DNA from: Prochlorococcus sp. MIT 0801
GTDB lineage: Bacteria > Cyanobacteriota > Cyanobacteriia > PCC-6307 > Cyanobiaceae
Length of the DNA: 32,000 nt
Direction: 5' to 3'
Assembly (NCBI RefSeq): GCF_000757865.1
Contig: NZ_CP007754.1
Coordinates: 30,001-62,000 of the forward strand
Shown here piece by piece: positions 6,987 through 18,294 of this stretch. Both the position numbers and the translations under genes were made by a program. The notes beneath the pieces are model-generated. The model saw only the letters and a program-made list of their open reading frames with translations. It had not been told where the DNA came from and did not search any database. Position 1 is the first letter of the stretch, and every line of letters begins with the position of its first letter.

Positions 6987-7024
6987 CGGGAACGTCTACT
7001 TTCTAGTGATAACTTGATTTATAT

Positions 7025-7046: not shown

Positions 7047-7085
7047 AGAGGTATGATGAGGATATAACTAGGGTTTTGAAGTGTC

Positions 7086-7107
7086 AGTTTTACGTGGGTT
7101 TTACGTG
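7086..7107 (+). repeat. Iteron pair AGTTTTACGTG GGTTTTACGTG
   Basis: Direct reading. Confidence 0.9.
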
Positions 7108-7130
7108 GCACATTTTCACCGTCTCCATGA

Positions 7131-7160
7131 AGAAATCGTAGAAAGATGCTTTTCTCTACA
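7131..7160 (+). repeat. Boundary motif AGAAATCGTAGAAAGATGCTTTTCTCTACA (imperfect inverted repeat CGTAGA.A / T.TCTACA)
   Basis: One of six full copies. The others are at 9649-9674, 10486-10518, 12892-12925, 15914-15945 and 18295-18325. Half-sites CGATTTCTCTA(C/T) are at 9727-9738 and 18378-18389. Confidence 0.8.
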
Positions 7161-7284
7161 CAACCAAATTATTTTTATACTTGTGAAGAGGTCTGATTTT
7201 CGCTTTACAAACCCAGAATAGATACATTCCCCTGAAAGTATTAGGATGTTTCTCTTCAAACTTTGCCCAGTTTTGTAAGTTTGT
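7156..7284 (-). pseudogene. Fossil C-terminal tail of a methyltransferase-type TPR gene, in frame directly after the stop of the sulfotransferase gene
   Basis: My translation after the TAA at 7287-7285 gives TNLQNWAKFEEKHPNTFRGMYLFWVCKAKIRP... The genuine C-terminus of the 10557 gene is QTNLQNWAKFEEKHPNTFEGMYQFWVCKS-stop. The track ORF 7116..7331 covers this DNA in a different frame. Confidence 0.75.
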
Positions 7285-9240
7285 TTAGGAGGCGATGTCT
7301 TTGTATTTATCAGTTTGGGTAAGGATTTCAATCGCAGGTTTCAGCATATCTTTATAGTTCTTCCATCCACCAATTGATTTTGAATTGATTGGGGAACGAA
7401 CTTGAACACTACTTGCCGTAGATACTGAGCGTGGATTTAGATGCGGTGTTAAAAATGAATCTTGCCATTTCCACCCTAACCAAGAGATCAAGGATTTAAT
7501 TTCTTCCTTAGGATTGTTGACTAATGAGTCATAATTTAGGTCATATATTTTTGATTTAAATCTATTCTTATATTTTGTCATTAAGTCTTCTTGATCTAAA
7601 TAAACTCTTGTGCAATCAACCAAGCAAGAGGAATAATCATTTCCATTAGCAAAATGTGTTCTGTAAATTGAAAGAATATTATCTAAAGGATTTCTATAGC
7701 AGTGAATAATGTATGCGTTGGGTATATGACAATGAATAATACCTGCGTATTGGTAGTTGTATAACCATTTGTTGGTTGTGATATTCATTTCCGTCTTATT
7801 ATTTACTTTTTTCTTATATAAGTCAGCAAGATTTATATCTTGTTTAGACTTCTTATACTCAAGGAACGATTCCTCAAGAATATTAATTTCACCTAGATCA
7901 TATACATCATTGCTCATACTAAGAATTGATTCCAATAATGTAGAACCACATCTAGGCATTCCTACAATAAAAATACTCTGAGAAGAATTTCTTGATGCTT
8001 TTTTATTAATTTCTTTCTTATCAGACTCAATAAGTAATGCTTTAGATTTATTGAACCTTATTTTAGGTTTAGATGGGTTAATATCAAGTTTTAATTTATT
8101 CGCTAATTTAAGGTATCTAGAACTTTCCTTATAATTTTTTTCCTTATGCAAAATATTTGCTATTGCGAAGTAAATATCAACTTGATTCTTTTGTAATTTA
8201 TTTTTTAAAATATTTTTTGATAAGAGTTGATCCTGCCATATCTTATTCTCATCAGAATAGTTAATTAATGATAGTGAATAGTATGCTTTTGCGAAATCAG
8301 GATTAAGTTCAATTGCTTTGCGGTATGACAATTCTGCGTCTTGTAATTTACCAAGATCTCTCAATACATTCCCCAGATTGGAATGCGCCATTGCGAAATC
8401 AGGTTTGAGTGCAATTGCTTTGCGTTGAGACAATTCTGCATCTTGTAATTTGCCGAGATCTCTCAATACATTCCCCAGATTGGAATGCGCCATTGCGTAA
8501 TCAGGTTTGAGTGCAATTGCTTTGCGGTATGACAATTCTGCATCTTGTAATTTGCCAAGATCATTCAATAAGACTCCCAGATTGGAATGCGCCATTGCGT
8601 AATCAGGTTTGAGTGCAATTGCTTTGCGGTATGACAATTCTGCATCTTGTAATTTGCCAAGATCTCTCAATACATTCCCCAGATTGGAATGCGCCATTGC
8701 GAAATCAGGTTTGAGTGCAATTGCTTTGCGGTATGACAATTCTGCATCTTGTAATTTGCCAAGATCTCTCAATACATTCCCCAGATTGGAATGCGCCATT
8801 GCGTAATCAGGTTTGAGTGCAATTGCTTTGCGGTATGACAATTCTGCATCTTGTAATTTGCCAAGATCTCTCAATACATTCCCCAGATTGGAATGTGCCA
8901 TTACGAAATCAGGTTTGAGTGCAATTGCTTTGCGAGTAGATAATTCTGCTTCTTGTAATTTGCCAAGATCTTTTAATATGATTCCATAATTAGAAAAAAC
9001 TCGGTGATCATTAAAACCTTGATTAATAAAATATTGATAATATTTTATTGCTTCTGAAATATTTCCTTTTACATTAAACTGAATTGCTTGATTAATTATT
9101 TTTTCTTGAGAAAGTTTAGAAATAGTATTGATATTAATAGTAAGATTTTCTTTGATTTCTCCTGAAGCAAATGGAACTGGAAATGTTTTTACTTCAGTGA
9201 CTTTCTTCTTTTCTCCTCCTTCTTGAGTAGAACTATCCAT
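7285..9240 (-). CDS. TPR-repeat protein with a C-terminal sulfotransferase domain
   Basis: About 8 TPR units (AMAHSNLGNVLRDLGKLQDAELSYRKAIALKPDY). The PAPS 5'-phosphosulfate loop is IFIVGMPRCGSTLLESIL, and the C-terminal ...RSPINSKSIGGWKNY is typical of TPR-sulfotransferases. Starts with ATG at 9240. Confidence 0.85.
   Translation of the reverse strand: MDSSTQEGGEKKKVTEVKTFPVPFASGEIKENLTININTISKLSQEKIINQAIQFNVKGNISEAIKYYQYFINQGFNDHRVFSNYGIILKDLGKLQEAELSTRKAIALKPDFVMAHSNLGNVLRDLGKLQDAELSYRKAIALKPDYAMAHSNLGNVLRDLGKLQDAELSYRKAIALKPDFAMAHSNLGNVLRDLGKLQDAELSYRKAIALKPDYAMAHSNLGVLLNDLGKLQDAELSYRKAIALKPDYAMAHSNLGNVLRDLGKLQDAELSQRKAIALKPDFAMAHSNLGNVLRDLGKLQDAELSYRKAIELNPDFAKAYYSLSLINYSDENKIWQDQLLSKNILKNKLQKNQVDIYFAIANILHKEKNYKESSRYLKLANKLKLDINPSKPKIRFNKSKALLIESDKKEINKKASRNSSQSIFIVGMPRCGSTLLESILSMSNDVYDLGEINILEESFLEYKKSKQDINLADLYKKKVNNKTEMNITTNKWLYNYQYAGIIHCHIPNAYIIHCYRNPLDNILSIYRTHFANGNDYSSCLVDCTRVYLDQEDLMTKYKNRFKSKIYDLNYDSLVNNPKEEIKSLISWLGWKWQDSFLTPHLNPRSVSTASSVQVRSPINSKSIGGWKNYKDMLKPAIEILTQTDKYKDIAS
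8293..9006 (-). repeat. Tandem 102-bp (34-codon) TPR coding repeats: 7 units, six of them nearly identical at nucleotide level
   Basis: Visible periodicity. Adjacent units around 8609-8806 are almost base-for-base identical. Confidence 0.9.
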
Positions 9241-9419
9241 CTTCTCTTATCTTTTCTCTCTTTTGGTTTTTCCGATTTTACTACTAATTTCAATCCTGAT
9301 TAATTCTTTCTGAAATCATTTATCATTTATAGAGCGAGAATAAAAAGTAGGTCTGTATATTATTTCGCTACAAAAGCATCATTGAGTATATTTTTTCTTG
9401 TAATCCATTGGCACGACTG

Positions 9420-9441
9420 GGGTTTACGTGGGTTTTACGTG
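9420..9441 (+). repeat. Iteron pair GGGTTTACGTG GGTTTTACGTG
   Basis: Direct reading. It lies inside a 56-bp segment that is absent from the paralogous region at 18170-18190. Confidence 0.9.
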
Positions 9442-9503
9442 CTATGTATAAAGATGAAATCCGTTGGTATGACTGGGGTTTAGGGGTGCTCTTTTGCAAA
9501 GGA

Positions 9504-9520
9504 CTATTGAGTGGGAATAG
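9504..9520 (+). repeat. att-like copy of the guaA 3' end (CTATTGAGTGGGAATAG)
   Basis: Identical to the 13044 copy and one synonymous difference from guaA 6970-6986. It is followed by TTTAGGGCAGTCAAAC, a flank shared with the 18211 copy. Confidence 0.85.
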
Positions 9521-9558
9521 TTTAGGGCAGTCAAACCCAGTCCACCACTCAAAGTGCT

Positions 9559-9580
9559 TGTTCCACGTGAGTTCCACGTA
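9559..9580 (+). repeat. Iteron pair, CC variant: TGTTCCACGTG AGTTCCACGTA
   Basis: Direct reading. A single further copy, AGTTCCACGTG, is at 9619-9629. Confidence 0.85.
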
Positions 9581-9784
9581 GAAATTTAAGTGACAGAGTG
9601 ACAGGGATTTGAAGAGTAAGTTCCACGTGTCACCTTCTCTGTAAAGACATCGTAGATAGTTCATTTTCTCTACACCTATTATTTTTAGTCAAATTACGAT
9701 GGTTCTTAATTTTGAAAATCAATTGACGATTTCTCTACGGATTTAAAAAATTAATCAGACCCAAAAAGTACATTGCATGAAAAA

Positions 9785-9808
9785 GGGGGCGAGATTTTGG
9801 TCGCCCCC
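9785..9808 (-). terminator. GC-rich hairpin GGGGGCGA-loop-TCGCCCCC with a U-tract on the minus strand; it opens a ~120-nt conserved module (copy 1)
   Basis: 8-bp perfect stem. The minus-strand reading is followed by TTTTTTC. It is paralogous to 13328-13351 with a compensatory G:C to A:T change. Confidence 0.55.
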
Positions 9809-9956
9809 TTTGAGTTCAGCACTCATAATTCCAACTGAACTTTCCATCCGTACTAACCAACTTTGACCTACTGGAACGAAAGTGCTAGAACTCCTGATTT
9901 CTTTTTAATTCTTCTAAGATTCAAATTCAATCGTTAGAAGTACCTGATTAGGTCTT

Positions 9957-10148
9957 ATGGCAAAAACTGAAAATGATCTTGATATTTACTATGCAGTTGG
10001 GAATGCCAATACTTCTAGGCAAGAAACTGAGATCGGAGAAATTATTAAAAAACGAAATTCATTGGGATGGAAATTAGTCTCTACCAGTACTGCTGTGGTT
10101 GATACGTCTAATCAATTCTCTAATTTGTATCTTTTTTGGGAAAAATAA
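9957..10148 (+). CDS. Hypothetical small protein
   Basis: 63-aa ORF downstream of the hairpin module. The GWKLVS...LYLFWEK pattern is loosely like small alpha/beta DUF proteins. Size is within chance expectation. Confidence 0.3.
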   Translation: MAKTENDLDIYYAVGNANTSRQETEIGEIIKKRNSLGWKLVSTSTAVVDTSNQFSNLYLFWEK

Positions 10149-10295
10149 TATGAGTAAGGGAAAAGAGAAATTCAACGTGACGCAGGGTATGACTCTTTTG
10201 CTGCTAAAAAAACTTTCTTTGCCTGCAAACGTAGTTTTTCTAATGATTCTCTTTATTACTAACCCATCAAACAAGATTGGTTATGAGGATGAGTA

Positions 10296-10362
10296 GGCAC
10301 AACAAAACCTGACCTAAAGCAGTTCTTTTTGAAGATCAGTCGCAAGTGTTTCCTTGTTCCTT
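10296..10362 (-). ncRNA. Decayed Yfr2-like sRNA remnant
   Basis: The plus strand GGCACAACAAAACCTGACC...GATCAGTCGCAAGTGTTTCCTTGTTCC is colinear with 14821-14890. The terminator stem is degraded and the GUGAGGAG 5' motif is missing. Confidence 0.4.
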
Positions 10363-10556
10363 ATTGACTACTTTTTTAAGATGACTACTTATTCCTTTTC
10401 CAGTATTTCACTTCGTCCTCCTTTGAAAAGTCCATATGATAAAGAACAAAAGTTTATTTCTGCTCTATGCAACTATGCATATTTTCGTAGAGAAATCGTT
10501 GAAAGGTGTTTTTCTCTGAAATATTCAATATTTTTATACTTGTTAATTAGTCAGAT

Positions 10557-12737
10557 TTACGATTTACAAACCCAGAACTGATACATACCTTCGAAGGTAT
10601 TGGGATGTTTTTCTTCAAACTTTGCCCAGTTTTGTAAGTTCGTTTGTTTTTTATCTTCTGGGAAATATTGCTCATAGATCGATTTAATTTGTTTTTGAAG
10701 CAAGAATCCAAGAAACTTTAATTCATTAGATTTGAGAATTTCTTGTAGTTGCTTAATGTTGAATCTATGTTCCTGTGCATGAAAACAAAGATCACGGCAA
10801 GAAGAAAGTGTATAGAAATCAGAACTCTTTGTTAGAGAGTTTATTTCTGGTGTTTTTCCGGAAAAGATAGTTTCTCTAAAATTACGAATATGGTCCTCAT
10901 TTGTTTGAAGTTTTTTGCTGGCAATATAATTCCTTGCTTTAATAATATTTTGTCTTGCTAATTCGCTATATAAACCCAATTTAAGAAATCCATTAGTTTT
11001 TAAAACCCCTAATAATGCTTTCAAACCTTTTGAGGGTTCATCCATATGATGTAAAACCCCTGAACATAAAATGATATCAAATTTTTCCTCTAGTAAATTA
11101 ACTTCTAAGATATCCATTTGAATCAATTTAACATTATTGATTTCAAGTTCTTTTATTTTTCTTTGGGCATAAGAAAGACTAGACAAACTTAAATCTATGC
11201 CAGTAATCGTAGCATGGTTATAAATTTTCGCATGTAAAATCTGTTGACCTGTTCCACACCCAGCAATTAGAACTTTTAATTGACTATTTTCAGATTTGAA
11301 ATTGATAGAACTAGGTTTTATTTCATTATTTATTGCCTGTGTAATAGATATCTTTTGACTTTCTAAATTATTCCCATACCTCCATCTAGGATATGGATTT
11401 TTCTCATATTGTGATTTTACTTTTCGAGAAATATAATCATTTATTCTACCTAGTTTTTTTATATTCTTAGACAAGTCAATTTCTTCTAGAGGTTCTGATA
11501 TTTGTATGTTTATTAATTCTTTAAAACTTTGATTTGAAGAATTAAAAGATTTCAAAGATGGTATCCTATCCAGGAGTTTATATAAAGAAAAATAACAAGA
11601 TAAAATTGAAATATTTATCTCATTTAATTCATTATTTTGGCATCTTTTGATGATATTATTTAGAGATATATTTTCTTCTTCAGTTAATGAGAAAATATAT
11701 TCGTTAAGGAAGCATTGTTTTCCTAAAGTAATAATAAATTGTAATTCATAGTAATTTATTTCTTTTTTATTCTTTGCAATTTTAATGCATAAATACTTTC
11801 TTAAATTCGTTAGCAATTTCTCAAATCTAATATCCTGAAAAGTTATTTTTTTAAGGGCATTGATTATGACTTTATTATTAATTATTAATTCTATCTGGGA
11901 ACATTCTGAATCTAATTTTTCTAGTTTACTGATTATTTCATTGTTATATACATAGTTAAATGAGTTTATTAATTCTTTATGAGATATATCATTTCTTTCT
12001 AGTAGAAGATTTAATATAGTTTTCACTTTTGATTTGCTTAACTTTGACGTATCAAAATCTCTAAGAAATTCCGTTATGAAGGAATAAATATTAGGATATG
12101 TTGGATTAATTTTAATTATTTGCAAGTAAGAATCAAATGCTTCTTCTAACTTGCCAACATCTGTCAATATTATCCCCAGATTTAAATGTGCTTCTGCGAA
12201 ATTAGGATTCAGTTCAATTGCTTTGAGGTATGAGATTTCTGCGTCTTGTAATTTGCCAAGATCTGTCAATGTTATTCCCAGATTGTAATGTGCTTCTGCG
12301 AAATCAGGTTTAATATCAATTGCTTTTCGGTGGCATAATTCTGCATCTTTTAATTTGCCAAGATCTCTCAATGTTATTCCTAGATTGGAACGTGCTTCTG
12401 CGAAATCAGGTTTAATATCAATTGCTTTTCGGTGGCATAATTCCGCATCTTTTAATTTCCCAAGATCTCTCAATATCACTCCATAATTAGAAAAAACTTT
12501 GTGATCCTTATAACCTTGATTAATAAAAAGTTGATAATATTTTACCGCTTCTGAAACGTTTCCCTGTAAATGAAACTGGATTGCTTGATTAATGATTTGT
12601 TCTTTAGATGGTTTAGAAGAAGTATTTGTATTAATAGTAAGATTTTCTTTGATTTTTCCTAAATCAAATGCAACTGGGAATGTTTTCACCTCGGACATCT
12701 TCTTCTTTCCTTCATCTTCTTGACTAGAAAGATCCAT
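10557..12737 (-). CDS. TPR-repeat protein with a C-terminal class-I SAM-dependent methyltransferase domain
   Basis: 4 TPR units. Motif I is VLIAGCGTGQQ and motif II/III is DIILCSGVLHHMDEP. The track starts at a TTG at 12776. I prefer the ATG at 12737 (MDLSSQEDEGKKK...), which aligns with the paralog start MDSSTQEGGEKKK. Confidence 0.85.
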   Translation of the reverse strand: MDLSSQEDEGKKKMSEVKTFPVAFDLGKIKENLTINTNTSSKPSKEQIINQAIQFHLQGNVSEAVKYYQLFINQGYKDHKVFSNYGVILRDLGKLKDAELCHRKAIDIKPDFAEARSNLGITLRDLGKLKDAELCHRKAIDIKPDFAEAHYNLGITLTDLGKLQDAEISYLKAIELNPNFAEAHLNLGIILTDVGKLEEAFDSYLQIIKINPTYPNIYSFITEFLRDFDTSKLSKSKVKTILNLLLERNDISHKELINSFNYVYNNEIISKLEKLDSECSQIELIINNKVIINALKKITFQDIRFEKLLTNLRKYLCIKIAKNKKEINYYELQFIITLGKQCFLNEYIFSLTEEENISLNNIIKRCQNNELNEINISILSCYFSLYKLLDRIPSLKSFNSSNQSFKELINIQISEPLEEIDLSKNIKKLGRINDYISRKVKSQYEKNPYPRWRYGNNLESQKISITQAINNEIKPSSINFKSENSQLKVLIAGCGTGQQILHAKIYNHATITGIDLSLSSLSYAQRKIKELEINNVKLIQMDILEVNLLEEKFDIILCSGVLHHMDEPSKGLKALLGVLKTNGFLKLGLYSELARQNIIKARNYIASKKLQTNEDHIRNFRETIFSGKTPEINSLTKSSDFYTLSSCRDLCFHAQEHRFNIKQLQEILKSNELKFLGFLLQKQIKSIYEQYFPEDKKQTNLQNWAKFEEKHPNTFEGMYQFWVCKS
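12096..12503 (-). repeat. Tandem 102-bp TPR coding repeats (4 units)
   Basis: Periodicity in both DNA and protein (DLGKLKDAELCHRKAIDIKPDFAEA occurs twice, almost identically). Confidence 0.85.
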
Positions 12738-12970
12738 CTTCTCTCCTGGTTCTTTTGACTTTACTACTAATCTCAACTCTTATGACTTCTTTCTGAAATC
12801 ATATACCACCTATAGAGCAAGAATAAAAAGTAGATCTCTATATTATTTCTTTACGTATATGACCAGCTGACAAAAACATAGATGGCCACATAAATCGTAG
12901 AGAAATAATATACTACTTCTCTACATTTTATAGTTCCACACGAAAAAACCTTAAAAGTTATGGCATTTTC

Positions 12971-12992
12971 ATTTTCACACCATTTCCACACC
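12971..12992 (+). repeat. Iteron-like pair ATTTTCACACC ATTTCCACACC
   Basis: Direct reading; 11-bp period. A single copy, AGTTCCACACG, is at 12932-12942. Confidence 0.6.
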
Positions 12993-12995
12993 GCA

Positions 12996-13030
12996 TATTA
13001 AGTGGTGCAAACCATATGCACCACTTAATA
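12996..13030. repeat. Perfect 14-bp inverted repeat TATTAAGTGGTGCA-N7-TGCACCACTTAATA
   Basis: Direct reading. It lies 13 bp left of the att-like copy at 13044. Confidence 0.85.
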
Positions 13031-13098
13031 ATTTCCATAGTTGCTATTGAGTGGGAATAGCAGAAACGTCTACTTTCCAGTGATAATTTGATTTATAT

Positions 13099-13120
13099 GG
13101 TTTTACGTAGGTTTTACATG
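13099..13120 (+). repeat. Iteron pair GGTTTTACGTA GGTTTTACATG
   Basis: Direct reading. Confidence 0.9.
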
Positions 13121-13158
13121 AGAGGATAGAGAACCTATGGCTAGGTTTTGGATGGGTC

Positions 13159-13180
13159 TGTTTTACGTAGGCTTTACGTG
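13159..13180 (+). repeat. Iteron pair TGTTTTACGTA GGCTTTACGTG
   Basis: Direct reading. Confidence 0.9.
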
Positions 13181-13327
13181 CTATTTGTAAAGATGAACCC
13201 CTTTGTTTGGTGCTTTAATTCGATCCATTTTGACTCTCTTTGTCGGTTTAGTGATGGGGACAATACTAATACAAATGTACTATATTTATCTATTAGGTCA
13301 AGTCACTTATTTTGTTCCATTAAAGAA

Positions 13328-13351
13328 GGGAGCGAGATTTTGGTCGCTCCC
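13328..13351 (-). terminator. Hairpin GGGAGCGA-loop-TCGCTCCC, copy 2 of the conserved hairpin module
   Basis: 8-bp perfect stem with the same GATTTTGG loop as copy 1. The downstream ~100 nt partly align with 9809-9900. Confidence 0.5.
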
Positions 13352-13720
13352 TCTGAGTCAAGCACTCAACTGACTGAACTTAAATTTTCATCCTTTATTT
13401 ACTTTGACCCACAGAAGGTGCTGTGACTTCTAATTCATTAATTAAAAATCCAGATCAGGTAGAACATGAGAAAAAACTCCTGTTTAACCAACCACCCAAT
13501 AATCTTTGTGTTTTCTGAGAATGAGTTTGAGAAGATCGGGAATCATTCGTTTTACCTCAATATTTCAACTTTAAGTAATCAGGAACAAGGTGTGGAAGTG
13601 TTCCAAGTGAGATTAAAAAGACAGAAAACCAAAGAAAGATCGATGAAAGAGTATTCGACCCATTGGATCTGAAACTACGTGTTGTTTGCATAATTAGACC
13701 TCCTGTTAGTTCAATGTTTT

Positions 13721-13906
13721 TTAGTAGTCCATTGAGCAGTTGCCAAACTGCAAGCATTCATTCTCATAATCGACCTCATCAAAATCAGCTTCATAATTCG
13801 AAACCAGATCGCACCAATCGTTCCCTTGCATCGGAACTCCACAAGATTTCGAGAATGTTTCTTTTACGTCTTCGATTGCATGTTTAAAAGGATTACCGCA
13901 TGCCAT
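13721..13906 (-). CDS. Hypothetical small acidic Cys-containing protein (61 aa)
   Basis: A strong Shine-Dalgarno site (AGGAGG) ends 6 nt upstream of the ATG (minus-strand reading CTATTAGGAGGTCAAACCATG). The protein is MACGNPFKHAIEDV...ECLQFGNCSMDY. Confidence 0.5.
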   Translation of the reverse strand: MACGNPFKHAIEDVKETFSKSCGVPMQGNDWCDLVSNYEADFDEVDYENECLQFGNCSMDY

Positions 13907-14361
13907 GGTTTGACCTCCTAATAGTGCCTTGATTTATATCTACTCCTCCTAATAAAAAATATCTATAGGACAAAAACCCTAAAGTATTAACTCTGATTAC
14001 CCTACAAAGAAAAAACCCTGCAACTAATCAGGGGTTTGGGTTGTTCCGACCATTGCAGAGACCGCACGAAAGGTGACTCTGTTCACATCAGGAGGTGTGA
14101 GATGTCTCCTTAGAGTCAATGTACATTTCCCTTTTTTTAATATCTTCGAGAGTGCTATTACTCTTAATTTATATTCAATACCACTAATCAAAAATATCTA
14201 TGCAGAGAATCCAAATGTAGAAATACCTTGGTGTTCTCACCCCTATGAATTTCCATTTAATAGGAGTAGAACAAGATCAGGAGTCAAAGCACTTCAATTT
14301 CTGGGGTGATGGACTCGAAGGGGAGAAATACATGCCCCCTTACTTCATTTGAGGTATCTCT

Positions 14362-14532
14362 ATGACTAGAAAAAGAGACAAGATTTGGACAGCAATCATT
14401 GCAACTAGACAATGGTTCACCAAACTTTTTACTAGTGAGGCAGATGCTTTAGTTGATAACTTCGGAAATAATCCACCACCAGAGATAGGACCTCAATCTT
14501 ATTCGGGAGATATTCACGATAAAGGAGACTGA
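14362..14532 (+). CDS. Hypothetical 56-aa protein (not in the ORF track because it is under 60 aa)
   Basis: My translation is MTRKRDKIWTAIIATRQWFTKLFTSEADALVDNFGNNPPPEIGPQSYSGDIHDKGD. GAGG ends 7 nt upstream of the ATG, and the hairpin at 14560-14593 follows. Confidence 0.3.
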   Translation: MTRKRDKIWTAIIATRQWFTKLFTSEADALVDNFGNNPPPEIGPQSYSGDIHDKGD

Positions 14533-14559
14533 TTGAATTCATTTAAATTGCATTAAGAA

Positions 14560-14634
14560 AGGGACCCTGCTGCTTCAGCGACCTTGAGTCCCTCTCTTCA
14601 TTGACAGAACGAATTTTGGTAAGGAGTTGTTCTG
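14560..14634. ncRNA. Hairpin plus stem-loop module, variant copy: stem CAGAAC/GTTCTG with loop GGTAAGGAGTT (plus strand) or AACTCCTTACC (minus strand)
   Basis: Colinear with 15011-15083 and 21351-21421. The strand of expression is undetermined. Confidence 0.4.
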
Positions 14635-14824
14635 CTTTTCCTTTTCTAATCAATTTCACAAAGGTTCTGCATCCGAAAAAATTCCTAATTAGATATCGTC
14701 CTCACTGTTTCCGAATGGGTTGTATCTGATATCAAAAATCAAAACTACTGCTGTGCTTAAAAGCAGTAATCCAAAAACAACTTGGGGAGGTGGAAATATC
14801 ATTAGACCACTCTAGAAAAGGCAC

Positions 14825-14920
14825 AAAAAAACCGCCCAGTTCTGTTAGGGCGGTTTCTTTGTGAGATCAGGCGCAAGTGTTTCCTTGTTTCCACTGCGGA
14901 GGATCTCAACTCCTCACAAA
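14825..14920 (-). ncRNA. Yfr2-family-like sRNA
   Basis: Minus-strand reading: a TAAGTT -10-like box, then UGUGAGGAGUUGAGAUCCUCCGCAGUGGAAACAAGGAAACACUUGCGCCUGAUCUCAC, then the terminator AACCGCCC-N10-GGGCGGUUUUUUU. Length is about 95 nt. The GUGAGGAGU seed and GGAAACA-rich loop match my recollection of Yfr2-5. Confidence 0.6.
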
Positions 14921-15010
14921 ATAAACTTAATCAACATGACTCTTAGAAGGAATCCTGAGTATTTGAGTTCTTGAACTGTCACATATGACAATTCTTGTAC
15001 ATAAGGTATT

Positions 15011-15126
15011 AAAAAAGCACCCCACTTAAGCGAAGTTGAGTGCCTTTTTATAACAGAACTATTGTGTGAGGAGTTATTCTGTTATTTCATTTCTACTCCT
15101 GCATGCACCTTTTGTCACTACTAAAA
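15011..15126. ncRNA. Hairpin plus stem-loop module: stem AACAGAA/TTCTGTT with loop carrying TGTGTGAGGAGTT (plus strand) or AACTCCTCACACA (minus strand)
   Basis: A bidirectional-looking terminator hairpin at 15017-15043 is flanked by A- and T-runs. A conserved TTTTGTCACTACTAAAA box is at 15110-15126. Read on the minus strand, it contains the exact ACUCCUCACAC motif known from Yfr1. Confidence 0.45.
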
Positions 15127-15269
15127 AGATAAACTGATGAGAACCTACAAAATAGGAATAAGAACAAAGGATCCAAGAATAAAAAGTGGCGACCTTGCAC
15201 GAGTTCTATCAATCATTAGATCCTGAATCAAATAAACTTTCTGAGTGGATTTGTGAAAAATAGAAGATT

Positions 15270-15632
15270 ATGGATGAAACTTGGTTAAAAGAACTCAATC
15301 AAAGAAATATTGAGTTGGAAGGAGAAGATAGGGCGAAATGGGATGGTGCAACTGTCTCTGTTTCCTTCTCAGTTTTAAACAAATTAAGTCAGGCAGAACA
15401 AGGGAAATTTGAGATTACTGAATTCAAAAGAGCAACGAATGAAATTGAGCATTGGGCACGAGTAGAAGAAATATGCGATTTCTTTGGAGTTGTAGACCCT
15501 GATCTAGCAGGAGATGTCTATGTCAGAAAGTTCAAAAACTTAACTGTAGATGAAGAGAGTAAATGGATGGATTTAAAAGATATTAATGACGAGATGCCTG
15601 AGGGTTTTGGCGTAAAAATCGATCGGAGTTAA
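15270..15632 (+). CDS. Hypothetical acidic protein (120 aa)
   Basis: An ORF of a length unlikely by chance at this GC content. It is D/E-rich and followed by an imperfect hairpin at 15633-15658. Confidence 0.5.
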   Translation: MDETWLKELNQRNIELEGEDRAKWDGATVSVSFSVLNKLSQAEQGKFEITEFKRATNEIEHWARVEEICDFFGVVDPDLAGDVYVRKFKNLTVDEESKWMDLKDINDEMPEGFGVKIDRS

Positions 15633-15686
15633 GGGAAGGCAAATAATTGTTTGCTCCCTTGTCAATGAAAATATTTGCTAATTGAC

Positions 15687-15708
15687 GGTTCCACGTAAGG
15701 TCCATGTG
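15687..15708 (+). repeat. Iteron pair, decayed CC variant: GGTTCCACGTA AGGTCCATGTG
   Basis: Direct reading. Confidence 0.7.
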
Positions 15709-15764
15709 GTAAAACAGGGGAGCAAATCCCTATATACCACTAAATAATTCAAGTAGGTGCTGTG

Positions 15765-15781
15765 CTATTGGGTAGGAATAA
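15765..15781 (+). repeat. Decayed att-like copy (CTATTGGGTAGGAATAA)
   Basis: 14 of 17 bases match the guaA end. It sits in the same position relative to the downstream degenerate iterons and the CGTAGAAAG motif as the other copies. Confidence 0.55.
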
Positions 15782-15913
15782 TACTGACTACTAAAACGTA
15801 GTTATAGACTTAAAATATATATTCCCCGTGAGTTCTCTGTGAACGTGAACTGAGGAAGTGACAAGGGTTTTCAAGTGCTCTGTTACTCGTGAGACTTTGT
15901 CACCTACTCTGCA

Positions 15914-15945
15914 GAGAAATCGTAGAAAGATGGTTTTTCTCTACA
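15914..15945 (+). repeat. Boundary motif GAGAAATCGTAGAAAGATGGTTTTTCTCTACA
   Basis: Direct reading. It holds the same position relative to the TPR-gene 3' tail as the copies at 7131 and 10486. Confidence 0.8.
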
Positions 15946-15973
15946 AAATTAAATATTTTATGGTGTGGACTTT

Positions 15974-16084
15974 TCAATTTTCCGTATTACACGCCCAGAA
16001 TTGAAACATTCCTATGAAGGTCGTGGGGTGTTGCTCTTCATGTTTTGGTCACGTTTGTAAGTTTGTTTGCGTCTTGTCTTTTCC
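15974..16084 (-). pseudogene. Decayed fossil of the methyltransferase-type C-terminal tail, in frame after the stop of the 16085 gene
   Basis: My translation after the TAA at 16087-16085 gives GKDKTQTNLQT-stop-PKHEEQHPTTFIGMFQFWACNTEN-stop. The intact tail in the 10557 gene is KKQTNLQNWAKFEEKHPNTFEGMYQFWVCKS. Confidence 0.65.
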
Positions 16085-18007
16085 TTAAATTCCTATTAAT
16101 TTCACCGCAACTTGCTTCGTCATATAGGAGATCGCCAAAACTTCATAACTTAAATTATTATTAGAGCAAAATTCATTGAGTGCTTTATATTCATCCTGCT
16201 CCCAATTTTTATTAATAATAAACTCATCAAATATTAAAATTGTATCTTTATCTATGACAGACTTTGAATAGTTCAAGGCACAAATAGTAGAAGAATATAG
16301 ATCGGCATCAAAATTGATTAGTGATGCGATAGGTCTAGGTTTGGAATAAAAAGTTGGAAGTGTTTCTTCAAATTTACCTGCTATAAATGTTCCGCCATCA
16401 ATGTTGGGAATGACTCCATCTGCTGAATAAAATCCTTGTTTCTCTTCATGCCAATCTTCTGGTAAGCCTTGAAAAGTATCAAATCCATAACCTTTTTTGA
16501 AGGTATTAATTAAGTACTGAAAGGATTCACCTCGCCAAACACCAAACTCATAGAAAGGGCGATCTGTTTTGCTTTTATTAATCATACTGTCAAATAATGC
16601 CCATCTATGAAAAAACAATTCAGGTAACTTTGGTAAAGTAGAAACCCATTTTAGGGAACGGATTGTAGGATGATCTTTATAAATTGATTGTATAAGATTA
16701 TCAAATAATGATTGATAACCTTGATGTAATTTTAGACCACTTAGAGAGAGTTTTGCTTCTAAATGATTTTCATCTATTTTCAAGCATTGATTAATCCTTT
16801 CTTCTGCTTCCTCAATAGTATTGGCTAATCCATATAAATTCCAAGCAGCTTCAGCGAAATCAGGTTTAAGTTGAATTGCTTTGCGAAATGACAATTCTGC
16901 TTCTTGTAATTTACCAAGATCACTCAATATGATGCCCAGATTGGAATGCGCCTCTGCGTAATCAGGATTAATTTCAATTGCTTTGCGATATGAGATTTCT
17001 GCTTCTTGTAATTTGCCAATATTATTTAATATGTTTCCCATATTTAGATGCGCCATTGCGAAATCAGGTTTAAGTTGAATTGCTTTGCGAAATGACGATT
17101 CTGCTTCTTGCAATTTGCCAAGATCTTTCAATATGTTTCCTAGATTGGAATGCGCCTCTGCGAAATCAGGATTAATTTCAATTGCTTTGCGATATGAGAT
17201 TTCTGCTTCTTGGAATTTGCAAAGATCTCTCGAAATGGTTCCCAGATTGTAATGCGCCTCTGCGAAATCAGGATTAATTTCAATTGCTTTGCGAAATGAC
17301 AATTCTGCTTCTTGCAATTTGCCAAGATCTCTCGAAATGGTTCCCAGATTGTAATGCGCCTCTGCGAAATCAGGATTAATTTCAATTGCTTTGCGAAATG
17401 ACAATTCTGCTTCTTGCAATTTGCCAAGATCTTTCAATATGTTTCCTAGATTGGAATGCGCCTCTGCGAAATCAGGATTAATTTCAATTGCTTTGCGATA
17501 TGAGATTTCTGCTTCTTGCAATTTGCCAAGATCTTTCAATATGACTCCCAGATTGGAATGCGCCATAGCGCAATTAGGATTAATTTCAATTGCTTTACGA
17601 GTAGATAATTCTGCTTCTTGTAATTTGCCAACATTTTTTAATATGTCTCCCAAATTTACATACGCATCTCTGTACTCAGGATTAATTTCAATTGCTTTGC
17701 GAAATGACAATTCTGCTTCTTGTAATTTGCCTAGAGTTTTTAATATGACTCCATAATTACAAAAAACTTTGTGGTGAGAGAAACCTTCATTAATGAAATA
17801 TTGATAATATTTTTCTGCTTCTGAAATGTTTCCTTGTGAATGAAACTTAAATGCTTGATTTATTATTTGTTCTTTAGAAGGTTTCGAAGGCGTGTTAGTG
17901 GAAATAGAGATATTCTCTTTAATTTCTCCTAAACTAAATGGAACTGGGAATGTTGTTATTTCAGTGACTTTTTTTTTAACCTCTTTTATTGGACCGGATT
18001 CTTCCAC
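16085..18007 (-). CDS. TPR-repeat protein with a C-terminal TylF/macrocin-O-methyltransferase-like domain
   Basis: 9 TPR units. The C-terminal FYEFGVWRGESF...GFDTFQGLPEDW...LINFDADLYSSTICALN...ILIFDEF matches the TylF-family pattern. The start codon at 18007 is GTG, at the position aligned with the ATG of the paralogs. Confidence 0.8.
   Translation of the reverse strand: MEESGPIKEVKKKVTEITTFPVPFSLGEIKENISISTNTPSKPSKEQIINQAFKFHSQGNISEAEKYYQYFINEGFSHHKVFCNYGVILKTLGKLQEAELSFRKAIEINPEYRDAYVNLGDILKNVGKLQEAELSTRKAIEINPNCAMAHSNLGVILKDLGKLQEAEISYRKAIEINPDFAEAHSNLGNILKDLGKLQEAELSFRKAIEINPDFAEAHYNLGTISRDLGKLQEAELSFRKAIEINPDFAEAHYNLGTISRDLCKFQEAEISYRKAIEINPDFAEAHSNLGNILKDLGKLQEAESSFRKAIQLKPDFAMAHLNMGNILNNIGKLQEAEISYRKAIEINPDYAEAHSNLGIILSDLGKLQEAELSFRKAIQLKPDFAEAAWNLYGLANTIEEAEERINQCLKIDENHLEAKLSLSGLKLHQGYQSLFDNLIQSIYKDHPTIRSLKWVSTLPKLPELFFHRWALFDSMINKSKTDRPFYEFGVWRGESFQYLINTFKKGYGFDTFQGLPEDWHEEKQGFYSADGVIPNIDGGTFIAGKFEETLPTFYSKPRPIASLINFDADLYSSTICALNYSKSVIDKDTILIFDEFIINKNWEQDEYKALNEFCSNNNLSYEVLAISYMTKQVAVKLIGI
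16856..17773 (-). repeat. Tandem 102-bp TPR coding repeats (9 units, several nearly identical)
   Basis: Periodicity. For example, AEAHYNLGTISRDL.K.QEAE.S.RKAIEINPDF occurs twice in succession. Confidence 0.9.
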
Positions 18008-18210
18008 TATGCCGTTTTTATCTTTTGATTACTGGACTTTACTACATACTCCAATCCTTGTTGATTCTTTCTGAAATTATTTTGGAACTGATAGAGCGAG
18101 AAGAAAATTAGGTCTCTATATTATTTCTCTATAAAAGTTTCATTGAGTGTATATCCCCTTGTAATTTGTTGGTATGACTTGGTTTTAGGGGGTCTTCTTT
18201 TGCGAAAACC

Positions 18211-18226: not shown

Positions 18227-18294
18227 TTTAGGGCAGTCAAACGTTGTCCACTACTCAAAATATACTTCCACTTCCACTTGTCACCGTTTCTATT

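What the first reader, a model, noticed from the sequence alone, without database searches (positions are those of the whole stretch)
7156..18140. Three paralogous TPR genes share 5' and 3' homology arms but carry different catalytic domains, and two keep in-frame fossil tails after their stop codons
Seen: the genes at 7285-9240, 10557-12737 and 16085-18007 share three things. First, a conserved ~120-bp upstream leader (9241-9370, 12777-12890 and 18008-18135, e.g. TTCTTTCTGAAAT...ATAGAGCGAGAA...TCT.TATATTATTTC). Second, a ~110-aa N-terminus (..KKK.(T/S)E(V/I).TFPV.F..G.IKEN..I.TNT.SK.S.E.IINQA..F...GN.SEA.KYYQ.FIN.G). Third, 102-bp TPR units. Their C-terminal domains differ: sulfotransferase (PRCGSTL loop), class-I SAM methyltransferase (VLIAGCGTG) and TylF-like methyltransferase (FDTFQGLPEDW, FDADLYSST). 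Only the class-I methyltransferase gene ends with ...NLQNWAKFEEKHPNTFEGMYQFWVCKS-stop. The other two have their own stop followed immediately, in the same frame, by a recognisable copy of that tail: 7284-7156 is nearly intact, and 16084-15974 is decayed with an internal stop. Inference: catalytic modules, each with its own stop, were swapped in between fixed arms by homologous recombination. The locus therefore behaves as a cassette system that diversifies what a common TPR scaffold does. Sulfation and methylation enzymes suggest cell-surface glycan or lipid decoration, which would fit the phage and grazer selection known to act on Prochlorococcus island genes, but that link is speculation.
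Basis: partly seen in the sequence, partly recalled or inferred. Interest (0 to 1): 0.75.

Follow-up and report, generated by a model that had tools for sequence, protein, structure and literature searches.

The report
Module-swapping tandem TPR enzyme gene array
Beside the guaA gene of a Prochlorococcus genome, a tandem gene family keeps the same front half (a TPR docking scaffold) while its enzyme back half has been replaced repeatedly, and each replacement left small fossils of the earlier gene end that record how new multi-domain enzymes were built.

Summary
Three minus-strand genes (7285-9240, 10557-12737, 16085-18007) share a 5' leader, an N-terminus and 102-bp TPR units. They end in a sulfotransferase, a class-I methyltransferase (MT, closest to protein-lysine MTs) and a TylF-like methyltransferase. 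The last 28-32 MT codons recur after the stop codons of the other two genes (E=1.5e-12 and 4e-9).

In about 30 related Prochlorococcus genomes the same scaffold carries at least 12 unrelated modules. Nine are followed by this tail, in all three frames, so "in-frame" here is coincidence. The tail is the native C-terminus of this MT family in distant bacteria, so TPR-MT is ancestral.

Each 3' arm continues through a ~200-nt spacer into ~19 nt of the guaA 3' end, even far from guaA. The family is therefore a tandem amplification of one [TPR-MT, spacer, guaA-end] unit whose catalytic core was later replaced, sometimes serially (NKWYS over FkbM over MT). Beside guaA, intact MT, sulfotransferase+tail and another module+tail alternate between genomes. 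Neither arm tracks module type, so the arms recombine.

First captures needed non-homologous joins, and the target is unknown but may be a protein rather than a glycan.

The parts
7285..9240 (-). g1: TPR-sulfotransferase gene (651 aa). N-terminus 8979-9240, TPR array 8289-8978, sulfotransferase module about 7288-8292.
   Evidence: ORF. Pfam TPR families plus Sulfotransfer_3 E=3.7e-26. TRF 6.8 x 102 bp. Module boundary from the last TPR at aa 316. Weak similarity to TPST2.
9241..9436 (-). Non-coding 5' arm (leader) of g1, shared with g2 and g3.
   Evidence: Alignment A2. Self-BLAST 8289-9436 = 17056-18196 and 8641-9366 = 12138-12849.
7201..7284 (-). Fossil of the last 28 codons of the MT gene, directly after the g1 stop codon (TNLQNWAKFEEKHPNTFRGMYLFWVCKA).
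   Evidence: Translation. tblastn 89% identity, E=1.5e-12. Junction at MT coordinate -92, shared by 10 other SulfoT genes of the same subtype.
6987..7200 (-). Non-coding part of g1's 3' arm: spacer down to the guaA stop codon. It holds a conserved block GTAGAGAAAAGCATCTTTCTACGATTTCT and four copies of the word CACGTAAAAC.
   Evidence: Collinear with the spacer between an intact MT gene and guaA in L021 (87.9% over 704 nt, running into guaA). Word count 11 against 1.2 expected.
5400..6986 (+). guaA (GMP synthase), convergent with g1. Its last ~19 nt are the template of the guaA-end fossils carried by every unit.
   Evidence: ORF. Pfam GATase/GMP_synt_C on the identical protein. Boundary alignment.
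10557..12737 (-). g2: TPR-class I methyltransferase gene (726 aa), the ancestral architecture. TPR array 12138-12474, module 10560-12095, native tail 10560-10643.
   Evidence: ORF. Pfam Methyltransf_11/25/31. PDB: protein lysine methyltransferases, 8hkr E=1.8e-17, also 5doo and 5dnk. The tail motif is conserved in Synechococcus, Pelagibacter and Methyloligellaceae homologs.
12738..12853 (-). Non-coding 5' arm (leader) of g2.
10489..10556 (-). Non-coding 3' arm of g2 just after its stop codon.
   Evidence: Self-BLAST 10489-10657 = 15913-16080 and 10491-10645 = 7131-7286. Alignment A1.
16085..18007 (-). g3: TPR-TylF-like methyltransferase gene (640 aa, GTG start). TPR array 16854-17747, module 16088-16855.
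   Evidence: ORF. TRF 8.8 x 102 bp. Pfam TylF E=8.3e-7, above cutoff. PDB: CalS11 sugar O-methyltransferase E=5.4e-5.
18008..18196 (-). Non-coding 5' arm (leader) of g3.
15983..16078 (-). Decayed fossil of the MT tail after the g3 stop codon (KDKTQTNLQT*PKHEEQHPTTFIGMFQFWACNT).
   Evidence: Translation. tblastn 62.5% identity, E=4e-9. Junction at MT coordinate -104, as in other TylF-type genes.
15765..15982 (-). Distal 3' arm of g3, ending in a degraded guaA-end fossil (about 15765-15778).
   Evidence: blastn against the L015 MT-guaA flank: homology ends 14 nt into guaA. Arm sequence ends ...TATTCCTAC.
13040..13180 (-). Orphan distal 3' arm with a guaA-end fossil (13040-13055) upstream of g2. 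It is the remnant of a unit whose gene is gone.
   Evidence: Self-BLAST 6970-7107 = 13044-13180, 84%. guaA-end pattern. Boundary alignment.
9500..9687 (-). Orphan 3'-arm fragments between g2 and g1: a copy of the conserved block (9630-9687) and a guaA-end fossil (9500-9515).
   Evidence: Self-BLAST 7116-7177 = 9630-9687. guaA-end pattern with 2 mismatches. Boundary alignment.
18278..18325 (-). Orphan copy of the conserved 3'-arm block, upstream of g3.
   Evidence: Self-BLAST 7113-7160 = 18278-18325 (83%) and 15897-15945 = 18278-18325 (83.7%).

Best explanation
What it is. The locus is a co-directional tandem array of paralogous genes. All descend from one ancestral unit that lay convergent with guaA: about 300 nt of upstream region, a TPR-methyltransferase gene, a ~200-nt spacer, and the last ~19 nt of guaA.

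Step 1 (shown by pattern). This unit was amplified head-to-tail, so every copy still ends in a small guaA-end fossil.

Step 2 (shown). In individual copies, everything between the last TPR unit and the last ~80-140 nt of the MT ORF was replaced by an unrelated enzyme module that brought its own stop codon. The MT tail was left stranded behind that stop. This happened about ten times independently, with one fixed junction per module subtype, and sometimes serially (NKWYS over FkbM over MT).

Step 3 (inferred). The first joins cannot have used homology on the module side. The most likely route is homology-facilitated illegitimate recombination: a 5' crossover in the TPR repeats, and a 3' end joined in the A-rich end of the resident ORF.

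Step 4 (pattern shown, process inferred). Once made, every module lies between arms shared by all units. Homologous recombination or gene conversion in those arms has reassorted N-termini, TPR number, modules and 3' arms, within and between genomes. It also changes which module occupies a given chromosomal slot.

Step 5 (inferred, low confidence). The constant N-terminus and TPR superhelix acts as a docking scaffold, as in O-GlcNAc transferase. The variable modules include a protein-lysine-MT-like methyltransferase, a TPST-like sulfotransferase, GT41, 2OG-Fe(II) oxygenases, and sugar or FkbM-type O-methyltransferases. They would put different chemical marks on a shared target that is still unknown, probably a protein or glycoprotein.
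For: Arms and fossils in the window.

Family survey. 151 N-terminal hits and 114 complete genes from about 30 Prochlorococcus genomes, in tandem arrays whose composition differs between genomes.

Module diversity. 12 module clusters, or 21 subtypes at 50% identity: Sulfotransfer_3, class-I MT, 2OG-FeII_Oxy_5, TylF, GT41 (E=2.9e-79), FkbM, NKWYS, weak GT9 and 2OG_Oxy_3, and three unknowns.

MT tail. It is found after the stop codon of 9 module types, in all 3 frames. It is the native, conserved C-terminus of this MT family in Synechococcus, Pelagibacter and Methyloligellaceae.

Replacement, not insertion. No MT remnant lies upstream of any module.

Junctions are fixed per subtype. SulfoT -92, unk8 -122, Oxy5 about -132, unk7 -126 to -141, TylF -87 to -104, FkbM -111 to -119.

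guaA-end fossil. Homology of about 38 non-guaA-adjacent 3' arms to the guaA-proximal flank ends 14-24 nt (mode 19) inside guaA, with a sharp boundary. There are five pattern matches (up to 3 mismatches) in the window against 0.16 expected: the real guaA end, two placed fossils (9500-9515, 13040-13055) and two unassigned.

Orthologous slot beside guaA. MT in L021 and L015; SulfoT+tail in the window, L016 and L010; unk7+tail in L007. All have a collinear flank into guaA.

Stratigraphy. After the NKWYS stop codon come the FkbM 3' end, stop codon and junction, and then the MT tail. A SulfoT internal fossil follows a GT9-like gene.

Reassortment.
- N-terminal nearest neighbour has the same module in 14/85 genes against 11.8 by chance; within-module identity 0.607 against 0.615 between modules.
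- Within a module type, C-terminal and N-terminal identity are nearly uncorrelated (rho 0.08 for SulfoT and for MT).
- 3'-arm nearest neighbour has the same module in 14/46 against 9.9; neighbours in one array reach 93%.
- TPR number varies from 1 to 9 within each module type.

Feasibility. Exact runs of 27 and 29 nt are shared by g1 and g2. Genes with different modules share up to 53 and 70 nt.

Conservation. Fossil tails (per-site identity about 0.72 across paralogs) are no more diverged than 4-fold degenerate sites of orthologous guaA (0.65).

Function. PDB similarities and the GT41 sister architecture.
Against: - No recent swap was caught. Arms of genes with different modules are 70-93% identical, never near-identical, and each genome sampled represents a different species-level cluster. 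Ongoing recombination is therefore inferred from scrambled relationships, not observed.
- The N-terminal test rests on only 80 aa.
- Most loci come from single-cell assemblies, which fragment in repeats. A finished genome, MIT 0916, does show the same features.
- The 5' arms of guaA-proximal genes are only marginally closer to each other than to other positions (0.79 against 0.77). Whole-gene replacement or array contraction, with only the 3' crossover in the arm, cannot be separated from a clean double crossover.
- Why about ten independent junctions all fall in the last ~140 nt of a 1.5-kb module is not explained.
- About half of the main SulfoT subtype, and most GT9-like and unk5 genes, have lost the tail. 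The tail is therefore dispensable.
- The functional model has no experimental support. The TylF/CalS11-like and FkbM modules fit sugar substrates rather than protein substrates.
Confidence: 0.7

Rival explanations
1. A dedicated cassette-exchange system. The arms are maintained by selection because they serve as recombination sites. Modules are exchanged often, as an adaptive diversification device comparable to antigenic variation.
For: Both arms are uncoupled from module type. Array composition differs in every genome. Fossil tails are as conserved across paralogs as neutral sites are between orthologs. Junctions cluster in a narrow zone. Exact-match runs are long enough for RecA.
Against: The arms are fully explained as leftovers of a duplicated unit, including a 19-nt guaA fragment with no conceivable recombination function. 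The tail is lost in many genes. There is one junction per subtype, so captures were rare. No recombinase, integrase or invertase lies in the window. No near-identical arms with different modules were seen, and there is no within-array homogenisation of N-termini (0.606 against 0.614).
Confidence: 0.2
2. Relics only. The arms are similar purely by descent from the duplicated unit. Each module type is an old, vertically inherited lineage, and no recombination has occurred since.
For: Junctions are fixed within each subtype. Arm identities are moderate, 70-90%. The guaA-end fossil shows common descent.
Against: Under pure descent the N-termini and 3' arms should group by module. They do not. At the orthologous guaA slot the module differs while the flank is collinear, on two different flank haplotypes. 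TPR number varies from 1 to 9 within subtypes. Neighbouring units in L003 have 93%-identical 3' arms but different modules.
Confidence: 0.07
3. The tail and the downstream block persist because they form a functional cis-element of the mRNA or DNA, such as a terminator, a stability element or a protein-binding palindrome. Any module must keep this element.
For: A conserved block GTAGAGAAAA.CATCTTTCTACGATTTCT follows the tail in nearly all units. One pair covaries in the palindrome TCTC-CATG-GAGA (CG 14, UA 12, UG 3). A similar hairpin at 12896-12925 scores as terminator-like.
Against: RNAalifold finds no consensus structure. Fold z-scores are -0.6 to -1.8. Rfam finds nothing in the arms. The covarying pair splits along two flank haplotypes, so it may be one event. 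The outer pairs of the main hairpin are broken in about a third of units. Many genes lack the tail altogether. This idea would explain retention of the block, not of the coding tail itself.
Confidence: 0.12
4. The in-frame tails are translated by stop-codon readthrough or frameshifting. This would give g1 and g3 an alternative C-terminal extension.
For: Both window fossils are in frame 0, and the g1 tail is open for 28 codons or more.
Against: In related genomes the same fossil lies in frames 0, 1 and 2, at offsets +1 to +141, and often has internal stops. g3's own copy has an internal stop. In L010 an indel makes the SulfoT ORF read the tail out of frame.
Confidence: 0.02

Closest known systems
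Polymorphic toxin loci with C-terminal displacement (Rhs, CdiA and MafB 'orphan' modules; sequential displacement of T6SS effectors in Vibrio cholerae; PMC3967940, PMC5361080)
   Same: A constant N-terminal part is joined to unrelated, exchangeable C-terminal modules. New modules arrive by recombination that uses the conserved part as homology. Remnants of displaced gene ends accumulate downstream and record the order of events. Content varies strongly between strains.
   Different: There is no toxin domain, no immunity gene and no secretion signal. The modules are modification enzymes. Every module sits in a complete gene with its own promoter region and N-terminus, not as a promoterless orphan. 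The displaced remnants are only about 35-150 nt. The units arose by tandem amplification that included a piece of the neighbouring core gene.
TPR-scaffold protein-modifying enzymes: O-GlcNAc transferase / SPINDLY (TPR+GT41) and aspartyl beta-hydroxylase-type TPR+2OG oxygenases; TPR-fused 2OG dioxygenases in cyanophage arrays (PMC2938197)
   Same: An N-terminal TPR superhelix precedes a C-terminal catalytic domain. One sister architecture here is a genuine GT41 (E=2.9e-79), and two others are 2OG-Fe(II) oxygenases.
   Different: Here one and the same N-terminus/TPR scaffold, recognisable at the DNA level, is combined with at least 12 different catalytic folds inside one gene family. No phage homologs of the N-terminus, of the one module tested (2OG_Oxy5) or of the 3' arm were found.
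Protein lysine methyltransferases with solved structures (PDB 8hkr; 5doo and 5dnk, PKMT2/PKMT1, which from my own knowledge are the rickettsial OmpB methyltransferases)
   Same: The MT module of g2 matches them best among solved structures (E=1.8e-17 to 1.7e-7).
   Different: The matches cover only the Rossmann core (aa 271-465 of the module). The ~270-aa region upstream of the core, and the conserved tail, were not shown to align. The substrate is untested. All NCBIfam hits are far below their cutoffs.
Hypervariable genomic islands of Prochlorococcus (own knowledge: Coleman et al. 2006, Avrani et al. 2011). Enrichment of TPR families in low-light strains is noted in PMC11357015.
   Same: A strain-variable block wedged between core genes (guaA on one side, PBP2 and flavodiiron genes further on). 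The content is plausibly linked to cell-surface or interaction traits.
   Different: Variation arises from internal amplification and module replacement within one gene family, not from import of unrelated gene sets. No tRNA, integrase or transposase is present. I found no paper describing this architecture or its fossils.
Integron gene cassettes
   Same: Arrays of exchangeable units with varied functions.
   Different: There is no integrase in the window. No repeat search or alignment turned up attC-like sites, though none was specifically looked for. The units are not promoterless cassettes, and the junctions are not at one recombination site but vary by subtype.

Membership tests
TPR repeat proteins (Pfam TPR_1/TPR_2/TPR_8/TPR_11) | Tandem 34-aa helix-turn-helix repeats that score above the family cutoffs | tested here: met
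   TPR_1 E=3.9e-60 (g1), 9.7e-34 (g2), 3.2e-90 (g3). 102-bp DNA period.
Sulfotransferase (Pfam Sulfotransfer_3 / Sulfotransfer_1) | Domain score above the gathering cutoff | tested here: met
   g1: PF13469, 93.2 bits against cutoff 27; PF00685, 42.6 against 22.
Sulfotransferase (Pfam Sulfotransfer_3 / Sulfotransfer_1) | 5'-phosphosulfate-binding loop near the start of the domain | tested here: met
   The sequence GMPRCGSTLLESIL lies at the start of the domain match (aa 422 onward). That this is the PAPS loop rests on family knowledge.
Protein-tyrosine sulfotransferase (TPST) as a specific subfamily | Clear sequence relationship to TPST, and a protein-tyrosine substrate | tested here: inconclusive
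   The best PDB match is TPST2, but only at E=8e-4 over about 100 aa. The substrate cannot be tested here.
Class I SAM-dependent methyltransferase | Rossmann-fold MT domain above cutoff, with the glycine-rich motif I | tested here: met
   Methyltransf_11, 65.5 bits against 21.2; Methyltransf_25, 64.3 against 27. VLIAGCGTG is invariant across distant homologs.
Protein lysine methyltransferases of the PKMT type | Homology across the whole enzyme, and lysine methylation of a protein substrate | tested here: inconclusive
   These are the top PDB hits (8hkr 1.8e-17, 5doo 2.8e-10, 5dnk 1.7e-7), but only over the MT core. Activity cannot be tested here.
TylF / macrocin O-methyltransferase family (PF05711) | Domain score above cutoff over the full model | tested here: inconclusive
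   28.9 bits against cutoff 23, but the match covers only model positions 176-256 of 264. Methyltransf_24 scores 24.8 against 26.3, just below cutoff. The nearest structure is the CalS11 sugar O-MT, E=5.4e-5.
Polymorphic toxin systems (Rhs/CdiA/MafB type) | C-terminal toxin domain with a cognate immunity gene immediately downstream | tested here: not met
   The modules are transferases or oxygenases. The DNA after each stop codon is the MT-tail arm, not an ORF. This is an analogy only.
Polymorphic toxin systems (Rhs/CdiA/MafB type) | Conserved N-terminal region, variable C-terminus, and displaced remnants downstream | tested here: met
Integron | Tyrosine-recombinase integrase and attC sites flanking cassettes | tested here: not met
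   No integrase or recombinase appears among the window ORFs scanned with Pfam. Junctions differ by subtype.
Tandem segmental amplification of one ancestral unit | All units share the same end-points, including sequence copied from a neighbouring gene | tested here: met
   A guaA-end fossil of 14-24 nt (mode 19) terminates the 3' arm of about 38 units not adjacent to guaA. The window holds copies at 9500-9515 and 13040-13055.

The most novel reading that the evidence does not exclude
The array is a natural domain-shuffling engine. A fixed targeting scaffold (N-terminus plus TPR) is continually recombined, within and between cells, with a population-wide pool of more than 20 modification modules. 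Each Prochlorococcus lineage therefore writes a different combination of marks (methyl, sulfate, hydroxyl, sugar) on the same protein or glycoprotein target, under selection from phage or grazers. This would be a polymorphic system like those known for toxins, but applied to post-translational modification.
Probability: 0.2. Interest if true: 0.85.

Novelty: new variant of a known kind. Interest (0 to 1): 0.66.

Why it matters
How bacteria create new multi-domain enzymes is usually inferred only from end products. Here the intermediate steps can be read directly from the DNA:
- the duplicated unit, whose end-point lies inside a core gene;
- about ten independent replacements of a catalytic core, each with its junction preserved;
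- at least one three-layer succession of modules;
- later reassortment through the shared arms.

This gives a concrete, datable model for domain accretion in a streamlined genome that is thought to lose non-functional DNA quickly.

It also identifies a large, strain-variable family of TPR-tethered sulfo-, methyl- and glycosyl-transferases and oxygenases in one of the most abundant phototrophs in the ocean. If these enzymes share a target, they define an unexplored layer of variable protein or envelope modification, relevant to phage and grazer interactions. The question can be tested directly with TPR pull-downs and modification proteomics.

Tried and rejected
- Exact-sequence look-ups of g1 and g2 found nothing. 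The only contig holding this guaA ends inside g1.
- The word-indexed protein search with the N-terminal profile returned only fragments under 200 aa, useless for architectures. I used genomic loci instead.
- Phages as donors or vectors: no match for the one module tested (2OG_Oxy5), for the N-terminus or for the 3' arm.
- RNA element in the arms: Rfam hits only Cyano-1 RNAs elsewhere. Folds are not clearly better than shuffles. RNAalifold predicts no structure. One covarying pair only.
- Promoter and terminator scans were at chance level (45 against 46 expected), so no promoter is claimed for the leader.
- Positional orthology of the 5' arm beside guaA: tested and found weak (0.79 against 0.77). 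The claim of a clean double crossover at that slot was dropped.
- Concerted evolution of N-termini within arrays: not seen.
- MT remnants upstream of the modules (insertion model): none.
- NCBIfam: no module reaches any curated cutoff.
- Readthrough of the in-frame tails: rejected on frame variation.
- Literature: no description of this architecture was found.

Full report
1. THE OBSERVATION

The window carries three minus-strand ORFs at 7285-9240 (g1, 651 aa), 10557-12737 (g2, 726 aa from the ATG that aligns with g1's start) and 16085-18007 (g3, 640 aa, GTG start). All three have many TPR matches. Their C-terminal domains differ:
- g1: Sulfotransfer_3, E=3.7e-26.
- g2: class-I SAM methyltransferase (Methyltransf_11/25/31).
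- g3: TylF-like. The score is above cutoff, but the match covers only the C-terminal third of the model.

The TPR arrays have a 102-bp period, with 6.8, 3.3 and 8.8 copies. The N-termini are 66-70% identical over 110 aa. A self-BLAST shows DNA homology from about 125-200 nt upstream of the start codons through the TPR arrays (8289-9436 = 17056-18196; 8641-9366 = 12138-12849). There is none across the modules. Homology appears again directly after the stop codons (7131-7286 = 10491-10645 = 15915-16068).

Translating the DNA after the g1 and g3 stop codons gives TNLQNWAKFEEKHPNTFRGMYLFWVCKA and KDKTQTNLQT*PKHEEQHPTTFIGMFQFWACNT. The native end of g2 is ...KKQTNLQNWAKFEEKHPNTFEGMYQFWVCKS. tblastn scores the two fossils at E=1.5e-12 and 4e-9.

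2. THE FAMILY IN OTHER GENOMES

The window comes from a Prochlorococcus genome. Its GC content is about 35%, which from my own knowledge is typical of the low-light LLI clade. A profile of the shared N-terminus retrieved 76 loci from about 30 Prochlorococcus genomes, mostly single-cell assemblies plus the closed genome MIT 0916. In these loci I found 151 N-terminal matches and 114 complete genes. They lie in co-directional tandem arrays of up to six genes, and the composition and order of the arrays differ from genome to genome.

I clustered the sequence after the last TPR unit. This gave 12 unrelated module types, or 21 subtypes at 50% identity:
- sulfotransferase;
- class-I MT;
- 2OG-FeII_Oxy_5;
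- TylF-like;
- GT41, the O-GlcNAc-transferase type (E=2.9e-79);
- FkbM methyltransferase;
- NKWYS;
- weak GT9-like and weak 2OG_Oxy_3;
- three types with no Pfam match.

TPR number varies from 1 to 9 within each type. Some "TPR-only" genes are simply TPR-SulfoT or TPR-GT41 genes broken by a frameshift.

3. THE TAIL IS A GENERAL FEATURE, AND ITS FRAME IS IRRELEVANT

The MT tail is found after the stop codon of nine different module types, with up to 94% amino-acid identity (E=5e-24). It lies at offsets from +1 to +141, in all three reading frames, and often has internal stops. In L010 an indel makes a sulfotransferase ORF read the tail out of frame. The in-frame position in the window is therefore coincidence, and readthrough is excluded.

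Distant homologs of the MT module in Synechococcus, Pelagibacter and Methyloligellaceae (about 50% identity) end with the same motif, L.NW..FE..NP.TF..MYQFW, with invariant residues. The tail is thus the native C-terminus of this enzyme family. The fossils derive from an MT gene, and TPR-MT is the ancestral architecture. No other MT remnant lies upstream of any module, so the core was replaced rather than interrupted.

4. JUNCTIONS

On the 5' side, homology between genes with different modules ends within about 20 nt of the end of the shorter TPR array. On the 3' side, each subtype has its own junction in MT coordinates:
- main SulfoT subtype: -92 in most (11 genes with an arm, range -83 to -92, one at -62);
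- second SulfoT subtype: -121 and -136;
- TylF: -87 to -104;
- unk8: -122 (3 of 3);
- unk7: -126 to -141;
- Oxy5: -130 to -133;
- FkbM: -111 to -119;
- NKWYS and GT41: -103;
- unk5 and one unk7: about +20.

One junction per subtype means one capture per subtype, so there were about ten independent captures. All captures fall in the last ~140 nt of a 1.5-kb module or just beyond it. This stretch is A-rich (GAAGATAAAAAACAAACAAACTTACAAAAC), and the SulfoT stop codon TAA aligns with an MT CAA codon. Microhomology-mediated joining in this tract is a plausible explanation, but it is untested.

5. A SECOND FOSSIL: THE END OF guaA

In about 38 genes that are not next to guaA, the 3' arm continues past the tail. 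It runs through a conserved block and a ~200-nt spacer and then 14-24 nt (mode 19) into the reverse complement of guaA's last codons, (stop)TCCCACTCAATAG. There the homology stops abruptly.

In the window, the real guaA end is at 6966-6986. Fossils lie at 9500-9515 (upstream of g1) and at 13040-13055 (upstream of g2, inside an orphan copy of the whole distal arm, 13044-13180). A degraded copy lies at about 15765-15778, at the end of g3's arm. The pattern search gave five matches (up to 3 mismatches) against 0.16 expected: the real end, these two fossils and two unassigned matches.

The simplest reading is that the whole family arose by head-to-tail amplification of one unit: about 300 nt upstream, TPR-MT, spacer, and 19 nt of guaA. 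The "homology arms" are therefore the unreplaced parts of that unit.

6. REPLACEMENT AT AN ORTHOLOGOUS SLOT, AND STRATIGRAPHY

The gene convergent with guaA differs between genomes:
- an intact MT in L021 and L015;
- SulfoT plus MT tail in the window, L016 and L010;
- unk7 plus MT tail in L007.

The flank is collinear from the tail into guaA (window against L021: 87.9% over 704 nt). Both replaced and intact forms occur on each of two flank haplotypes.

In L003 the NKWYS gene is followed first by the last ~12 codons, the stop codon and the 3' junction of an FkbM gene, and only then by the MT tail. This is a three-layer succession, MT then FkbM then NKWYS. After a GT9-like gene in L011 lies a fossil of an internal part of a sulfotransferase module (E=3.6e-15).

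7. REASSORTMENT THROUGH THE ARMS

If each architecture had simply been inherited, the arms would group by module. They do not.
- The nearest N-terminal relative has the same module in 14 of 85 genes, against 11.8 expected by chance. Mean identity is 0.607 within modules and 0.615 between them, although nearest-neighbour identities reach 0.89.
- Within a module type, C-terminal and N-terminal identities are almost uncorrelated (rho 0.08 for both SulfoT and MT).
- The 3' arms behave the same way: 14 of 46 against 9.9 expected. There is some local homogenisation, for example 93% between neighbouring FkbM and MT units in L003.
- Fossil tails compared across paralogs (per-site identity about 0.72) are no more diverged than 4-fold degenerate sites of orthologous guaA (0.65). 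This argues for exchange or constraint rather than long independent decay.
- Exact-match runs are long enough for RecA-type recombination. g1 and g2 share 27 nt (5' arm) and 29 nt (3' arm). Genes with different modules in different genomes share up to 53 and 70 nt.

Caveats:
- No near-identical arms with different modules were seen.
- The sampled genomes each represent a different species-level cluster.
- The 5' arms of guaA-proximal genes are only marginally closer to one another than to others (0.79 against 0.77). A clean double crossover cannot be told apart from whole-gene replacement with just the 3' crossover in the arm.

8. RIVALS

- A functional RNA or DNA element in the arm gains little support. 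Rfam finds nothing there, fold z-scores are -0.6 to -1.8, RNAalifold predicts no structure, and the one covarying pair is confounded with haplotype. Many genes have also lost the tail.
- No recombinase, integrase, transposase or tRNA is present.
- No phage homologs were found.
- Assembly artefacts are unlikely, because the window itself and the closed MIT 0916 genome show the same features.

9. WHAT THE PROTEINS MAY DO (INFERENCE)

Among solved structures:
- the MT module is closest to protein lysine methyltransferases (8hkr E=1.8e-17; 5doo, 5dnk);
- the sulfotransferase is weakly closest to protein-tyrosine sulfotransferase 2;
- the TylF-like module is closest to the sugar O-methyltransferase CalS11.

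Sister architectures carry GT41 and 2OG-Fe(II) oxygenases. TPR plus GT41 is the O-GlcNAc transferase design, in which the TPR superhelix holds the protein substrate (established knowledge). Bacterial systems that combine hydroxylases, sulfotransferases and methyltransferases have been proposed to modify peptides or proteins (PMC2938197).

I therefore favour a shared docking scaffold that delivers different modifying activities to a common protein or glycoprotein target, but with low confidence. No module reaches any curated NCBIfam cutoff.

10. NOVELTY

TPR enrichment in low-light Prochlorococcus has been noted (PMC11357015), and TPR proteins are listed among abundant accessory genes (PMC7779031). 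I found no description of this array, its module replacement or its fossils.

The closest known logic is C-terminal displacement in polymorphic toxin loci (PMC3967940, PMC5361080). Here the same logic applies to modification enzymes, and the origin lies in tandem amplification. I rate it a new variant of a known kind.

Noticed in passing
window 7026-7107, 9421-9441, 13100-13180 (minus strand): The 10-nt word CACGTAAAAC occurs 11 times against 1.2 expected, always on the minus strand and in pairs 11 nt apart (10 of the 11 lie in these three flanks; the eleventh is at 19940-19949). In orthologous flanks of other genomes the same four positions carry a different word (CACGTGAAAC, CACACAAAAC, CGTGACAAAC), so the copies change together within one element. 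Short stems such as ACGT..ACGT or GTCAC..GTGAC are possible. The cause is unexplained.
   Followed up: partly
window 14859-14923 (-) and 21198-21262 (-); partial copy 10323-10358: Two Cyano-1 RNA genes (Rfam RF01701; 64.2 and 45.8 bits against a gathering score of 41). Each lies in a ~300-nt repeat (14824-15126 = 21164-21465, 70% identity). One sits inside the TPR array between g2 and g3. A 36-nt fragment lies downstream of g2.
   Followed up: no
window 15270-15632 (+): A 120-aa ORF with no Pfam match is conserved (mostly 68-93% aa identity; one diverged copy in L025) inside the TPR arrays of at least nine other genomes. It is always on the strand opposite to the TPR genes, so it travels with the array.
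   Followed up: partly
L003 2984-3130: Three-layer fossil stack. After the NKWYS-type gene come the last ~12 codons, the stop codon and the junction of an FkbM-type gene, and then the MT tail. This records serial replacement MT to FkbM to NKWYS.
   Followed up: yes
L011, directly after the GT9-like gene (12129-13814), +2 to +148: A fossil of an internal part (aa 76-124) of a sulfotransferase module, 71% identity, E=3.6e-15. The GT9-like module apparently displaced part of a TPR-sulfotransferase gene, not an MT gene.
   Followed up: partly
L003 12067-13830; L045 about 9965-11500: Some genes scored as 'TPR only' are followed, in another frame, by a complete sulfotransferase module (74% identity, E=1.7e-179) or by most of a GT41 module (aa 2-341 of 471, running to the end of the searched stretch). 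They are frameshifted pseudogenes or sequencing errors, not a separate architecture.
   Followed up: partly
L010 6830-6960: An indel removes the sulfotransferase stop codon, so the ORF reads 27 codons of the MT-tail DNA in the wrong frame before stopping. This shows that the tail DNA is not constrained as coding sequence.
   Followed up: yes
window 1561-1971 (-): A small HNH endonuclease ORF (Pfam HNH, E=2e-10) lies among core genes about 5 kb from the array. It is also present in the only other contig with an identical guaA. No link to the array is evident.
   Followed up: no
window 25586-27436 and 27439-29214 (-): Two adjacent paralogous flavodiiron-type genes (ODP/metallo-beta-lactamase, flavodoxin and flavin reductase domains) share an 88-nt stretch at 78% identity (25895-25982 = 27751-27838). 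This is an ordinary gene pair.
   Followed up: no
window 7140-7170, 10480-10510, 15905-15945, 12896-12925: A recurrent motif GTAGAGAA...TTCTCTAC-GATTT followed by a short palindrome, TCTCCATGGAGA or TCTTCATGAAGA. One pair covaries (CG 14, UA 12, UG 3), but it splits along two flank haplotypes. It could be a small hairpin or a protein-binding palindrome.
   Followed up: partly
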